DNA of 60,442 nt, from the IMG/VR virus record IMGVR_UViG_2660238269_000009, one strand, 5' to 3'. Source of the DNA: a virus. Its lineage: Duplodnaviria > Heunggongvirae > Uroviricota > Caudoviricetes. Made by a program: the position numbers. Each line of letters begins with the position of its first letter. The first letter of the stretch is position 1. Below, one piece after another: positions 51,001-54,000 of the stretch.

Positions 51001-54000
51001 GAACCAATAAACCATCCATTGCCCTCTGGTCGTTCCGGTTCCCATGCAGAAATATCAGCATCACACGCATCAAGGTCAGCACATCCTTCATCTCTGAAGC
51101 AGAGGACGTATTGAAGATTATTTTCCTCCATCCAGGCGTTAAACTCTTCCGTTGAAATATATTCCCGACCGTCACAGAATTTTTCATATTCAGGATGCGT
51201 CCAGCAGCCATATTCATCACGTACTACTGGTATTTCTTTGATTTCATTCATTTCTGTTCTCCCACGTTTTCAGACTTTCACCACAGAACGGACAAAATGA
51301 AACCCGAACTGGTAATTTAGAAAATTCACCGGAACGCAACATCACAAAATCAGGACCGCGAGTTAAACTCTCATTCCAGATTTTGTATATCAGCAGACCT
51401 TTTCGCATCGTGTATTCAGCATCATGCTCAAGGGACTTTGCCAGTGCTGCACATGGTTCTATCTTGTTGCCATTAACCTGGCATTTTGATTCACTCACCG
51501 CACCACCTCCTCAAAATTCCCCTGATAAAACGCCAGTACGCGCTGCATAACTTCGCTCTTCCGGCACTCGAGACAGATTATGTTCAGACGCCTGTCGTAG
51601 CGGCGTATTTCGCCATCTGGTAATGACCAGATAAGGTCCGGATCAACCGCAGATGGTTTCTTCGGCTTTGCCCTTGAGAGCTTTTTACGGGCATTTTGCC
51701 AGTCCTTACGCGCCTGTTCAGACGGGAATAACCCGTAACCAGAGTTGTATACATCGCCACTGGCAACCAGCTCTCTGGCCAGAACGCTCATCAGATATCT
51801 TGTTGCCCCAGTTTTAGTTTCCAGTTGTCGTAACGTCTCGCGCCCACTCTGGCGTACGAGTTCAACAACCTGCCCTTTAATTTTTTCCCGCTCTTCTTGT
51901 GTAAAAACTTTTGCCACAAGCCCTCCTGAAAATTACCTCATGACCAGAAATTAACACTTACCCCCTGAAGCCCGGCGGAATTTCAGTGTCCGGTTCAGAA
52001 ATGTGATTCACGCAACGCTGCGCAGGCGAACGCCCCAGGCGGATAACCAGTTCATCCCATTTTTCCCGGAGTTTTGCCGGACTCATGATGTTTTTTACCC
52101 AGAACGAATCCCGCTGGAGACGCCCAAACATTTCACAAATTTGTCTGTGAGTTCTGCCATCCAGCATCCGCATTGTGCGAACGTCATTGGCCCATGCTGT
52201 CCAGTTGGGTTCTTTCGGTCTAGTGATCTCGCCATCATAGCTGGCCGCCTGCTCGTAAAGACTCACGATTCGTCCCCAGATCCACTGTGCGCACACCAAA
52301 TCTTCCTGACTTCCCCACTGGCGTTTTTTCGCACTGAACACAACCGCGTCAGGGTGTCGGGTTAAAAAATCCTGTTCAGCCGTCTGCGGGTCCGGTTGCG
52401 AAGCGTCCGGACAAGAAGATCTTTTATCTGACGGATCAGGTTTTAATACTGACGGATCGGGGTCAATCATCGGCCCCTAATCGGCAGTTTTTTATCAACA
52501 GTTGATCCATCAAAATTTGACGGGTCAACCGTTGAGGGGTCAATATTTGACGGGTCAACTGTTAACGGGTCATTTTTTGCCGGGCTAATTTTTCTTTTCG
52601 GTTTATATGACTCACGCGCCGCCGCCGCAGCTGCTTCGAGTTTTTCCACATTAAGCCGATAGATATTGCTTACATTACGCCCACCGACCTTACGCTCTTC
52701 CTTCGTCAGCCAGCCCTCTTTCGCCAGTTCTGCAATAGCCGATTTCACTGTGGATTCACTTCTTGCACCGATCTGACGCCGGATAGTTTCAATGGCAGGC
52801 CATGACACGCCCTCGTCATTGCTGTAGTCTGCAAGACGGGCCATAACCGCCACCCTGGATAAGATCATGCCGGTGAAGGCGCACCCTTCCCAGACAAGAC
52901 CATGAAGCTTGCTGCTCATAAAACCCCCGAACACCGTGCTTTTAGTGCATCACCACAGCATTCCCTGCCGGGCCGCCGCGATTCATCTGGTCATACAAAA
53001 CAACCGCTGACGCAACAAAATCATCGACATCCTTCACCAGCCGATCCCTCCGTTCGACGATCTCACGGTAATATTCAGAACTGTGGCTGCGCATACGGGC
53101 CACCAGCAAAGGCGGCATCGCCTTTTCGATCGCCGGTAACAGAGCCTGCATTTTTTCAACAGCATCAGGGGTGTCTTTATCCAGCCAACGGAAAATTTTC
53201 TGGGTATTACGGGCCAGGGCTTCCGGATGGCTGTCGTCATACAGTTCCGGGAACGTCATTCCCAGCTCGAAATACGCTTTGGTAATTTTCGCAGCCGGCA
53301 CTTTTTCGCCGTCCGGATGCGCCCAAACATTCATCGCCATGCGGATGTGTTCATGCTTGATTTTCATGAATCATTCTTTCCTTCGTTCGAGGTGCTATCC
53401 TGCTTCTTGTAAAGTTCTGGGTTGTATTTCAATTCACCGTTAGTAATTTCATCCAGTTCCATTGCGCGAAGTTTGGGAATAACTGCTTTCCACCGCACAA
53501 CAGCCACATGTGAAATTCCAAGAGCCTCAGCTACTAGTCGCTTTTTTTTGAAATAGCGCAGAACATCATCTTTGAACATAAAACTCTCCTGTTATTTCGA
53601 GCAGAAGGGTAACAATAGTTACATAACAATGTCAACCATAGCAACATCACTTGGTGGTAACATTGGTTACATGAAAAACACTATCAGCGAACGTATTCGG
53701 AATCGTCGAAAAGACGTTGGATTAACCCAACAGCAGGTTGCGAAAGCAATCGGCATATCTCGTGTATCCGTAACAAAATGGGAAAATGGCTCTTCAAAAC
53801 CTGACGGTGAGAATTTGTATCTACTGTCAAAATTGCTTTCCAAATCTCCTGAATGGATTCTTTATGGAAAGGACGGTCACGATAAAACCGATGATCTGCG
53901 TCTGAATCAGTACCCTTACATTAGTGACAACATCGCCCGGTTGCCCGTTTTAACGTGGGAACAGGCTGGTTATTGGGATATGAGTTGTCCAGTAACCAAG

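What the first reader, a model, noticed from the sequence alone, without database searches (positions are those of the whole stretch)
52425..52934. Iteron-type origin embedded in the 3' end of the replication initiator gene and spilling into the coupled downstream gene
Four or more TTGACGGGTCAA-like repeats at roughly 15-bp spacing encode a DPS-rich peptide repeat at the end of the initiator. The next gene, coupled by ATGA, starts with an Asp/Pro-rich stretch encoded by related CTGACGGATC repeats. This parallels lambda ori inside gene O. No helicase-loader-like gene with ATPase motifs is apparent nearby.
Basis: partly seen in the sequence, partly recalled or inferred. Interest (0 to 1): 0.35.

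Follow-up and report, generated by a model that had tools for sequence, protein, structure and literature searches.

The report
Phage replication origin inside frameshifted initiator gene
The repeats are very probably the replication origin of an E. coli lambda-like prophage, lying in the middle of one lambda-O-like initiator gene that only looks like two genes here because one base is missing; the arrangement is ordinary, except that this initiator has no partner helicase loader and ends in a copy of the tail of the host protein DnaT.

Summary
The repeats are real. Five palindromic TGAC-N2-GTCA sites lie at exact 15-bp phase (cores 52503-52572). Degenerate units flank them, and two further sites lie at 52429-52459.

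The "initiator plus ATGA-coupled downstream gene" is one 320-aa gene on the minus strand. It is split here by a 1-bp deletion in a C5 run (52474-52477). None of 1407 complete E. coli genomes carrying this stretch has the deletion, nor do 80 IMG/VR contigs.

The intact protein matches PHROG "replication initiation O-like" end to end. Its C-terminal half is 35% identical to lambda O. The sites occupy the same place in the gene as ori-lambda.

In 70+ species' prophages with this N-terminal domain, the array recurs with a fixed spacing grammar (15 x n, 33, 21, 24). Synonymous codons are constrained there. Initiators with other N-domains carry other repeats at the same place.

So the iteron-origin reading is supported by inference only; the two-gene reading is not.

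No P, DnaC or DnaB homologue exists in the window. The protein's last 20 residues copy the C-terminus of host DnaT. Across relatives, this tail never co-occurs with lambda P, whereas the lambda-O-type tail always does. That is a testable lead for "O-only" lambdoid replication.

The parts
51958..52919 (-). One lambda-O-like replication initiator gene. It is 320 aa when intact and is split here into ORFs 52467..52934 (the annotated ATG is at 52919) and 51958..52470.
   Evidence: Identical to the single CDS WP_000095675.1 apart from the 1-bp deletion. Matches phrog_391 end to end, E 4e-115.
52474..52477 (.). C4 run (G4 on the coding strand) that is C5 in all relatives. This frameshift creates the stop at 52467-52469 and the apparent ATGA coupling.
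   Evidence: Alignments. 0 of 1407 E. coli genomes with this 71-nt stretch match it exactly. 80 of 80 IMG/VR loci encode residues 1-320 in one frame. All 3 indels against the closest genome are in homopolymers.
52620..52919 (-). N-terminal helix-turn-helix / winged-helix type domain (about aa 1-100). It is the presumed iteron-binding part.
   Evidence: Pfam HTH_36 E 7e-7, with a weak DnaD_N hit. Conserved across 80 species' loci. Always linked with the TGAC-N2-GTCA array.
52493..52597 (.). Iteron array of about seven 15-bp units. Five have recognisable TGAC-N2-GTCA cores at 52503-52512, 52518-52527, 52533-52542, 52548-52557 and 52563-52572. The two perfect sites are 30 bp apart. The array encodes the pentapeptide-repeat linker.
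   Evidence: The same array with 15-bp spacing occurs in relatives (263 spacings of 15). Synonymous-site constraint is shown.
52429..52459 (.). Two further sites (TGACGGATCA at 52429-52438, TGACGGATCG at 52450-52459), 21 bp apart, flanking an A+T-rich spacer. With 52410-52449 (GC 0.35) this is the candidate unwinding side of the origin.
   Evidence: D5. GC profile. The 21-bp spacing recurs 50 times in relatives as part of '33, 21, 24'. The unwinding role is inferred.
51958..52425 (-). C-terminal module: a lambda-O-type C-terminal domain plus tail. It is exchanged as a unit between phages with different N-domain and iteron sets.
   Evidence: 87% nt identity to HannyBb, PhiR42_1 and mEp460 ends at 52425. 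BLASTP to lambda O residues 145-277 gives E 5e-26.
51961..52023 (-). The last 21 codons (AQRCVNHISEPDTEIPPGFRG), a copy of the extreme C-terminus of host DnaT.
   Evidence: PDB hits 2ru8, 6aep and 9zbt_D. 14 of 20 residues identical to E. coli DnaT 160-179. hhalign matches only DnaT 158-179, probability 92.6%.
51495..51917 (-). The next gene, DUF977 ('Ren-like' / LygF). It is not a helicase loader and is not conserved next to relatives of the initiator.
   Evidence: Pfam DUF977 E 1e-29. phrog_142. It forms a singleton cluster among 146 downstream ORFs of relatives.
52942..54345 (.). Immunity and early-right context: YdaT-type cII-like gene (52942-53367 -), P22-Cro-like gene (53364-53579 -) and LexA/S24-type repressor (53572-54345 +). 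The initiator gene therefore sits where lambda O sits.
   Evidence: Pfam. RefSeq annotation of the identical region.

Best explanation
This is the replication module of a lambdoid E. coli prophage. It holds a single O-like initiator gene with the phage origin inside its own coding sequence.

Shown:
- The two ORFs are one gene broken by a 1-bp homopolymer deletion.
- The protein belongs to the O-like initiator family.
- The repeat array is conserved, phased and constrained at the DNA level.
- No phage helicase or loader gene is present.

Inferred mechanism:
- Dimers of the N-terminal helix-turn-helix domain bind the palindromic TGAC-N2-GTCA sites. There are five at 15-bp phase and two more 54 and 75 bp beyond.
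- They build an O-some-like nucleoprotein complex that destabilises the adjacent A+T-rich stretches. Transcription from the Cro-side early promoter through the gene probably helps, as in lambda.
- The C-terminal module then brings in the host helicase. Lambda O's tail is paired with P. This protein instead ends in the last ~20 residues of host DnaT, a portable peptide. I propose the peptide docks the initiator onto whatever DnaT's own tail binds. The DnaC-DnaB complex is the most likely partner and PriA is the alternative. Host DnaB would then be loaded without a phage loader.

In this particular sequence the frameshift separates the DNA-binding half from the recruiting half. If the deletion is real and not an assembly error, this copy of the prophage should be unable to initiate its own replication.
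For: One gene:
- A 1-bp deletion in the C5 run.
- The intact CDS is annotated in CP025903 and CP027312.
- 0 of 1407 genomes share the deletion, and 80 of 80 IMG/VR loci are intact.

Initiator:
- phrog_391 E 4e-115, covering residues 1-320.
- 35% identity to the lambda O C-terminal half.
- The gene sits after cro and a cII-like gene.

Origin:
- The phased array is beyond chance.
- It holds the same relative place as lambda's annotated iterons.
- Across genome-contig loci with this N-domain, core sites are 22 per kb in the linker against 5 per kb in the rest of the gene. Spacings are 15 (263 times), 33 (50), 21 (50) and 24 (16).
- Ser is TCA in 296 of 321 repeat codons, against 501 of 1312 TCN codons elsewhere. 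Asp is GAC in 209 of 252, against 525 of 1307 elsewhere. The middle residue, which overlies the N2 spacer, varies freely.
- Initiators with other N-domains carry other repeats at the same place. Some have periods that are not multiples of 3: mEp460 23 bp x5, Pm34 24 bp x3, lambda 20-24 bp x4, 606R7 GTCACG at 10-11 bp.
- The mosaic junction with HannyBb and mEp460 lies just downstream of the sites, at 52425. The repeats therefore travel with the N-domain, not with the C-domain or DUF977.

Loader:
- There is none in the window.
- Tail class against the next genes in relatives: lambda-O-type WNxxxW tail, 9 of 9 followed by lambda P. DnaT-type IPxGFRG tail, 0 of 43 with P, 3 with a DnaC-like gene, 40 with none within +-3.5 kb.
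- The same tail is followed by a DnaC-like gene in Gifsy-2 and POCJ13. Rac YdaU also carries the tail. SPN1S has the tail and no annotated helicase loader in the 2.5 kb downstream.
- The tail sits on at least four unrelated initiator scaffolds.
- Host dnaT is itself followed directly by dnaC.
- 'O-only' lambdoid modules are a recognised class whose mechanism is unexplained (PMC12315714).
Against: - There is no experimental evidence of origin function or of binding for this family. The iteron sequence is absent from the searchable literature.
- The A+T-rich stretches are modest (GC 0.33-0.35 over 40 bp) next to lambda's.
- The codon statistics use sites chosen by similarity to the core, and they come from related sequences. 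The P values overstate independence.
- My profile comparison did not link the N-domain to lambda O's N-domain (hhalign probability 0.2%, shallow profiles). Pfam Phage_rep_O does not hit.
- What the last 20 residues of DnaT do is not defined. Residues 154-179 only modulate cooperative ssDNA binding in PMC4132743. The 2026 preprimosome paper suggests the N-terminal domain of DnaT, not the tail, as a possible DnaB/DnaC recruiter.
- A third tail class (WxxIW, 15 loci) also lacks a loader, so a DnaT-like tail is not the only loader-less solution.
Confidence: 0.72

Rival explanations
1. The repeats are only a by-product of selection for a flexible, low-complexity Asp/Pro/Ser linker between two protein domains. 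They have no cis-acting role, and the origin lies elsewhere.
For: The 15-bp period equals five codons, and the array encodes a clean pentapeptide repeat. Relatives also show xDxSK repeats. No binding data exist.
Against: Synonymous positions are fixed (TCA 92%, GAC 83%), while the middle amino acid varies among A, P, G, T, L, R and V. The conserved bases form inverted half-sites. Two extra sites keep fixed 33/21/24 spacings. Other initiator classes carry repeats at the same place with 23-bp or 10-11-bp periods, which cannot be peptide repeats. Lambda's proven iterons occupy the same place.
Confidence: 0.08
2. One reading: a natural two-gene arrangement in which a short DNA-binding initiator is translationally coupled (ATGA) to a separate recruiting protein, with the origin spanning the junction.
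For: In this sequence the ORFs do overlap by ATGA, and the second ORF starts at an in-frame Met of the intact protein.
Against: The split depends on one missing base in a homopolymer. 0 of 1407 E. coli genomes and 0 of 80 viral contigs share it. The closest genome differs from the window by three 1-bp indels in 22.4 kb, all in homopolymers, which is the pattern of sequencing error or slippage. All 70+ full-length relatives are single ORFs of 280-375 aa.
Confidence: 0.03
3. The array is a binding site for some other protein or process (a repressor or antirepressor, DnaA, a packaging or partition function, or a recombination hotspot at a module boundary) and not for the initiator.
For: The mosaic junction with other phages lies about 5 bp from the last site. 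Two one-mismatch DnaA boxes lie nearby, at 52492 and 52642.
Against: DnaA-box-like matches are at chance level over the window (59 observed against 47 +- 7 expected). The array co-occurs with this N-domain in loci whose flanking genes, C-domains and tails all differ. It is replaced by other repeats when the N-domain is replaced.
Confidence: 0.07
4. The origin reading is right, but helicase loading does not use the tail. Either an unrecognised small downstream protein (DUF977 here, YfdN/PerC-like elsewhere) is a non-homologous loader, or replication depends on recombination and PriA at D-loops and not on origin-directed loading.
For: Non-homologous loader replacement is frequent in phages (PMC11087808). 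The O-only phage LLS grows better with RecBCD and is Chi-rich (PMC12315714). The function of the tail in DnaT is undefined.
Against: There is no conserved downstream partner. Among the 43 DnaT-tail loci the next genes are methyltransferases, YfdN/PerC-like, ANT, RusA and DUF968 genes in varying combinations, and DUF977 never occurs. The tail is the only constant feature, and it excludes lambda P perfectly.
Confidence: 0.1

Closest known systems
Bacteriophage lambda ori and the O/P replication module
   Same: The origin lies inside the initiator gene, at the same relative place (lambda gene nt 349-433 of 900; here about 348-417 of 963). The iterons have internal dyad symmetry and sit in the interdomain linker. 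The C-terminal domain is homologous (35% identity, E 5e-26). The gene follows cro and a cII-like gene. The mosaic boundary lies just downstream of ori.
   Different: The N-domain is Pfam HTH_36, not Phage_rep_O, and no profile similarity was detected here. There are five to seven short sites at a tight 15-bp phase plus two outliers, against four 18-19-bp iterons at 20-24 bp in lambda. The A+T-rich region is less marked. There is no P gene. The C-terminal tail is DnaT-like and not the WNxxxW type.
'O-only' lambdoid replication modules (phage LLS, mEp460 and others; Zheng et al. 2025, PMC12315714)
   Same: A single O homologue with no helicase or loader gene. mEp460 and HannyBb share this window's C-terminal module and tail at about 87% nt and 92% aa identity.
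   Different: Those phages have a different N-domain and a different 23-bp repeat set. The paper does not mention the DnaT-like tail and states that the mechanism is not understood.
Tail-bearing initiators paired with a phage DnaC-like gene: Gifsy-2 O homologue, Stx phage POCJ13 gp16-gp17
   Same: The initiator ends in the same IPxGFRG-type tail. Rac YdaU also carries the tail.
   Different: They carry their own DnaC-type loader directly downstream. This prophage has none and would have to rely on host DnaC. Their N-terminal and central domains are unrelated to this one.
E. coli DnaT (primosomal protein I)
   Same: The last 20 residues are 70% identical and terminal in both proteins. Host dnaT is followed directly by dnaC, mirroring the phage initiator/DnaC-like pairs.
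   Different: There is no similarity to the DnaT N-terminal domain, the acidic linker or the three-helix bundle. hhalign aligns only DnaT 158-179. The database name 'Primosomal protein I' for these phage genes is a misnomer.
DopC/DopE (Brezellec et al. 2017, PMC5509034)
   Same: DopC is an O-derived protein with an HTH_36 N-domain and a 'DnaT C-ter motif'. That architecture is the closest published precedent for the tail on an O-like protein.
   Different: DopC is chromosomal and is paired with a P-like protein (DopE). The authors found no iterons in it. Here the iterons are present and P is absent.
Iteron plasmids (RepA / pi type)
   Same: Tandem initiator-binding repeats next to an A+T-rich region, with a winged-helix-type initiator.
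   Different: Plasmid iterons are direct 17-22-bp repeats about two helical turns apart, outside the rep gene, and bound by monomers. Here the sites are palindromic, 15 bp apart and lie within the coding sequence. This comparison rests on general knowledge and was not tested here.

Membership tests
Lambdoid ori-in-O origin (ori-lambda type) | Several initiator-binding repeats with internal dyad symmetry inside the initiator's own gene, in the segment between its two domains | tested here: met
   Five phased TGAC-N2-GTCA sites at codons ~116-139 of 320. Lambda's iterons are at codons 117-145 of 299.
Lambdoid ori-in-O origin (ori-lambda type) | A+T-rich unwinding region directly beside the iterons | tested here: inconclusive
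   40-bp windows with GC 0.33-0.35 lie at 52410-52449, 52480-52529 and 52570-52609, against about 0.5-0.6 around them. This is weaker than in lambda.
Lambdoid ori-in-O origin (ori-lambda type) | Repeats co-vary with the initiator's N-terminal DNA-binding domain | tested here: met
   The same core and spacing grammar occur in about 70 loci with this N-domain. Different repeats occur with different N-domains that share the same C-module.
Lambdoid ori-in-O origin (ori-lambda type) | The initiator binds the repeats, and the segment supports replication | not testable with these tools
   Needs footprinting and a replication assay.
Lambda O protein family | C-terminal domain homologous to lambda O residues ~150-280 | tested here: met
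   BLASTP 35% identity over 148 aa, E 5e-26. phrog_391, phrog_277 and phrog_9773 'replication initiation O-like'.
Lambda O protein family | N-terminal domain of Pfam Phage_rep_O (PF04492) | tested here: not met
   Lambda O hits PF04492 at 6e-36. This protein hits only HTH_36. hhalign of N-domain profiles gives probability 0.2%. Brezellec 2017 reports an HHpred link of lambda O to HTH_36, so distant kinship is possible.
Lambda O/P module | P-type helicase loader gene immediately downstream | tested here: not met
   The next gene is DUF977. There is no P, DnaC or DnaB homologue in the 60 kb.
O-only lambdoid replication module (Zheng et al. 2025) | O homologue present; no helicase or loader gene in the module | tested here: met
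DnaT / primosomal protein I | DnaT N-terminal oligomerisation domain and C-terminal three-helix bundle (residues 84-153) | tested here: not met
   BLASTP and hhalign align only DnaT 158/160-179.
DnaT / primosomal protein I | Extreme C-terminal peptide ...SEPDxxIPPGFRG | tested here: met
   14 of 20 residues identical, terminal in both proteins.

The most novel reading that the evidence does not exclude
The C-terminal ~20 residues shared by host DnaT and by many unrelated phage initiators (...D-x-x-I-P-x-G-F-R-G) are a portable docking peptide for the DnaC-type helicase-loading machinery. The partner could be DnaC-DnaB or possibly PriA. Phage initiators that carry the peptide can dispense with their own loader. 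This would explain the 'O-only' lambdoid replication modules. It would also assign a function to the uncharacterised tail of DnaT, and the host dnaT-dnaC pair may itself descend from a phage initiator/DnaC-like module.
Probability: 0.45. Interest if true: 0.65.

Novelty: new member of a known kind. Interest (0 to 1): 0.4.

Why it matters
As an origin this is a textbook arrangement in a new initiator/iteron family, so the finding as written is ordinary. Its 'two coupled genes' feature is an artefact of one missing base.

Two things have some value.

1. The family supplies a very clean natural data set. It covers 70+ species and one fixed site grammar (15 x n, 33, 21, 24). It shows how a cis-acting origin and a coding sequence share the same bases.

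2. The module belongs to the 'O-only' class, which Zheng et al. (2025) found in 34 of 314 lambdoid phages and called not understood. The strict pattern found here makes that open question directly testable with a tail-deletion or tail-swap experiment. The pattern is: the lambda-type tail always comes with P; the DnaT-type tail never comes with P and comes with a DnaC-like loader or with none. It also points to a role for the unexplained C-terminus of DnaT.

Tried and rejected
- A single-sequence AlphaFold2 model of the N-terminal ORF was unusable (mean pLDDT 46). No fold search was run.
- Profile comparison of this N-domain family with the lambda O and Pm34 N-domains gave no signal (probability 0.2%). 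The profiles were shallow.
- Extending DnaT similarity beyond the tail: a tblastn hit of 79 columns to two loci shrank to residues 158-179 by hhalign. Deeper homology is rejected on present evidence.
- DnaA boxes near the array are at chance level.
- A literature search for the iteron sequences returned only unrelated primer matches. Searches for DnaT with 'replication protein O' mostly hit the phrase 'replication protein of'.
- PADLOC and Pfam on the three-gene cassette at 48139-50289 and on DUF977 gave nothing useful.
- The IMG/VR scan returned only near-identical copies. It was good for showing that the intact gene is the norm and useless for diversity. The genome-contig scan supplied the diversity.
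- Programmed frameshifting as a rescue of the split gene was considered and rejected. The run is only G4 on the mRNA, and no relative has it.
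Full report
**The sequence**

All relevant genes are on the minus strand. TRF and the repeat finder report a tandem array at 52495-52593, with period 15 (5.2 copies) and a stronger 30-bp super-period (score 101).

The unit contains an inverted-repeat core, TGAC-N2-GTCA. Cores with at most two mismatches lie at 52503, 52518, 52533, 52548 and 52563, exactly 15 bp apart. The two perfect copies (TTGACGGGTCAA) are 30 bp apart. Two further cores lie at 52429 and 52450, 21 bp apart.

A chain of five sites in exact 15-bp phase never arose in 200 first-order Markov simulations of the window (maximum 3). 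The longest chain elsewhere in the real 60 kb is one.

On the coding strand the array reads NDPLT-VDPSN-IDPST-VDPSN-FDGST. The observation of repeats is therefore confirmed.

**Gene structure**

The window shows ORFs 52467..52934 (155 aa) and 51958..52470 (170 aa) overlapping by ATGA. megablast of 51900-53000 found 1513 complete E. coli genomes covering at least 80% of the query. The listed best hits span 1102 bases against 1101 in the query and carry a single 'helix-turn-helix domain-containing protein' under the match.

Alignment shows that the window lacks one C of a C5 run (52474-52477). With that base present, the reading frame is one 963-nt CDS, WP_000095675.1, 320 aa. The 'start' Met of the second ORF is an internal residue (...PIRGPMIDPDPS...).

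A 71-nt query across the site matched 1407 genomes, none at 99% or more, so none has the C4 form. All 80 IMG/VR loci retrieved encode residues 1-320 in one segment.

Against the closest genome (strain 2013C-3181), 22.4 kb of the window differ by six substitutions and three 1-bp indels. All three indels are in homopolymers. The split is thus a private homopolymer frameshift. I cannot tell an assembly error from a recent mutation. Either way it is not a two-gene design.

**What the gene is**

The intact protein matches phrog_391 'replication initiation O-like' over its whole length (E 4e-115). The window's second ORF matches positions 130-298 of the same profile.

Residues 153-300 are 35% identical to lambda O residues 145-277 (E 5e-26). 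The N-terminal ~100 residues hit Pfam HTH_36, with a weak DnaD_N hit, and not Phage_rep_O, which lambda O hits. A profile comparison with the lambda-type N-domains gave no signal.

The gene follows a P22-Cro-like gene and a YdaT-type cII-like gene, opposite a LexA/S24-type repressor. This is the place of O in a lambdoid map.

**Is the array an origin?**

This is inferred, from four lines of evidence.

1. Place. Lambda's annotated iterons lie at gene nt 349-433 of 900. These cores lie at about nt 348-417 of 963.

2. Conservation of a site grammar. A scan of one genome per species with the N-domain alignment gave 80 loci, mostly Enterobacterales. In their ORFs, core sites reach 22 per kb in the linker-coding segment against 5 per kb elsewhere in the gene. 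Spacings are 15 bp (263 cases), 33 (50), 21 (50) and 24 (16). The recurrent layout is 15 x 4-8, then 33, 21, 24. The window has 15, 15, 15, 15, 54, 21.

3. Constraint at the DNA level and not the protein level. In the repeats Ser is TCA in 296 of 321 codons, against 501 of 1312 TCN codons elsewhere in the same genes. Asp is GAC in 209 of 252, against 525 of 1307. The third residue of the pentapeptide, which overlies the spacer of the palindrome, varies among A, P, G, T, L, R and V. These counts are inflated by relatedness and by choosing sites through the core, but the direction is unambiguous.

4. Co-variation. mEp460 and HannyBb share this gene's C-terminal module (87% nt identity up to 52425). 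They have another N-domain, and in the same place they carry five 23-24-bp repeats. Pm34 has three 24-bp palindromic repeats, lambda has its four iterons, and 606R7 has GTCACG at 10-11 bp. Periods that are not multiples of three cannot be peptide repeats. The repeats follow the N-domain and not the C-domain or the downstream gene.

A+T-rich patches (GC 0.33-0.35) flank the array and lie between the two outlying sites. They are less marked than in lambda. DnaA-box-like matches are at chance level. I found no paper describing these iterons.

**Helicase loading**

The next genes are DUF977 ('Ren-like'/LygF), two small unknowns and a Q-type antiterminator. tblastn with lambda P, Pm34 P, E. coli DnaC, a phage IstB-like DnaC and DnaB finds nothing in the window.

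Zheng et al. 2025 report that 34 of 314 lambdoid phages encode only an O homologue and that their replication 'is not yet understood' (PMC12315714).

A search of solved structures gave an unexpected hit. The last 21 residues (AQRCVNHISEPDTEIPPGFRG) match the extreme C-terminus of E. coli DnaT. Identity is 14 of 20, and the match is terminal in both proteins. hhalign confines the similarity to DnaT 158-179. This explains the database label 'Primosomal protein I' on such phage genes, which is a misnomer.

Among the 80 loci the initiators end in one of three tails.

| Tail class | Loci | Next genes |
|---|---|---|
| Lambda-O-like, W-N-x-x-x-W | 9 | All 9 followed by Pfam Phage_lambda_P |
| DnaT-like, IPxGF(R/K)G | 43 | None with P; 3 with a DnaC-like gene (48-52% identical to E. 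coli DnaC); 40 with no P, DnaC or DnaB homologue within +-3.5 kb |
| WxxIW | 15 | No loader |

Three loci outside these classes carry IPxGF plus an extension and are followed by a DnaC-like gene.

In annotated phages, the tail-bearing initiators of Gifsy-2 and POCJ13 are followed by a DnaC-like gene. Rac YdaU also ends in the tail. SPN1S has the tail and no annotated helicase loader in the 2.5 kb downstream.

The tail occurs on at least four unrelated scaffolds. Host dnaT is itself followed at 3 nt by dnaC. Brezellec et al. 2017 had noted a 'DnaT C-ter motif' on the O-derived DopC (PMC5509034).

I therefore propose that the tail is a docking peptide for the DnaC-type loading machinery, with PriA as the alternative partner. 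Its role in DnaT is not defined in the papers I could read. This remains a hypothesis.

**Consequence of the frameshift**

If the frameshift is real, the N-terminal fragment (DNA-binding domain plus linker) and the C-terminal fragment (lambda-O-like domain plus tail) are separate polypeptides. The site-bound part could not recruit the helicase, so this prophage copy should be replication-defective.

**Verdict**

The finding is a real feature of an ordinary kind. It is a lambdoid origin inside an O-like initiator gene, in a family whose iterons had not been described. The two-gene reading is an artefact. The side lead on the DnaT-like tail is the part worth an experiment.

Noticed in passing
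window 51961-52023 (-); also L097-L160, L172-L174: The last ~20 residues of the initiator copy the C-terminus of host DnaT. Across relatives the tail class predicts the next gene. The lambda-type tail was followed by lambda P in 9 of 9 loci. The DnaT-type tail was followed by P in 0 of 43, by a DnaC-like gene in 3, and by no loader in 40.
   Followed up: partly
L170 1479-2018 / 739-1476 (E. coli dnaT-dnaC); L153, L156, L172, L173: Host dnaT (ending IPPGFRG) is followed directly by dnaC. Phage initiators with the same tail are followed directly by DnaC-like genes that are 48-52% identical to E. coli DnaC (L153, L156, L167). The arrangement suggests a common origin for the pair.
   Followed up: partly
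L095, L096, L113, L118, L119, L123, L127, L136, L141-L143, L147, L150, L151, L163: A third C-terminal tail class (..W-x-x-I-W.. followed by about 12-17 residues) occurs on longer initiators (301-374 aa) with the same N-domain and iterons. It also has no P, DnaC or DnaB homologue within +-3.5 kb.
   Followed up: no
window 48139-50289 (+): A three-gene cassette (363, 142 and 197 aa) lies in the opposite orientation between a Q-type antiterminator and hokD/IS421. It has no Pfam family and only a weak PADLOC hit (PDC-S54, E 0.0014) for the third protein. It may be a moron or a defence island.
   Followed up: partly
window 39456 and 40531: Two more 1-bp homopolymer differences from the closest complete genome (T6 against T7; C6 against C5). 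They fit the same error or slippage pattern as the frameshift in the initiator gene.
   Followed up: partly
window ~43737-44426, 46333-47444, 47637-47792, 50286-50819: Two antiterminator-Q-type genes lie about 6 kb apart, with a frameshifted IS421 transposase and hokD between them (by the RefSeq annotation of the near-identical region L089). The late-regulation region looks composite or rearranged.
   Followed up: no
window 52503-52572: The array has a 30-bp super-period. Perfect palindromes followed by AAT(A/T)T alternate with imperfect ones followed by AC(A/G/T)G, so strong sites lie about 2.9 helical turns apart with weaker sites between them.
   Followed up: no
L121 (Vagococcus sp. WN89Y) and L126 (Chryseobacterium sp. 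18061): Genome records labelled as a Firmicute and a Bacteroidete carry this Enterobacterales-type initiator module (63-64% identity, with the iteron array and the DnaT-like tail). Contamination or mislabelling of those assemblies is likely.
   Followed up: no
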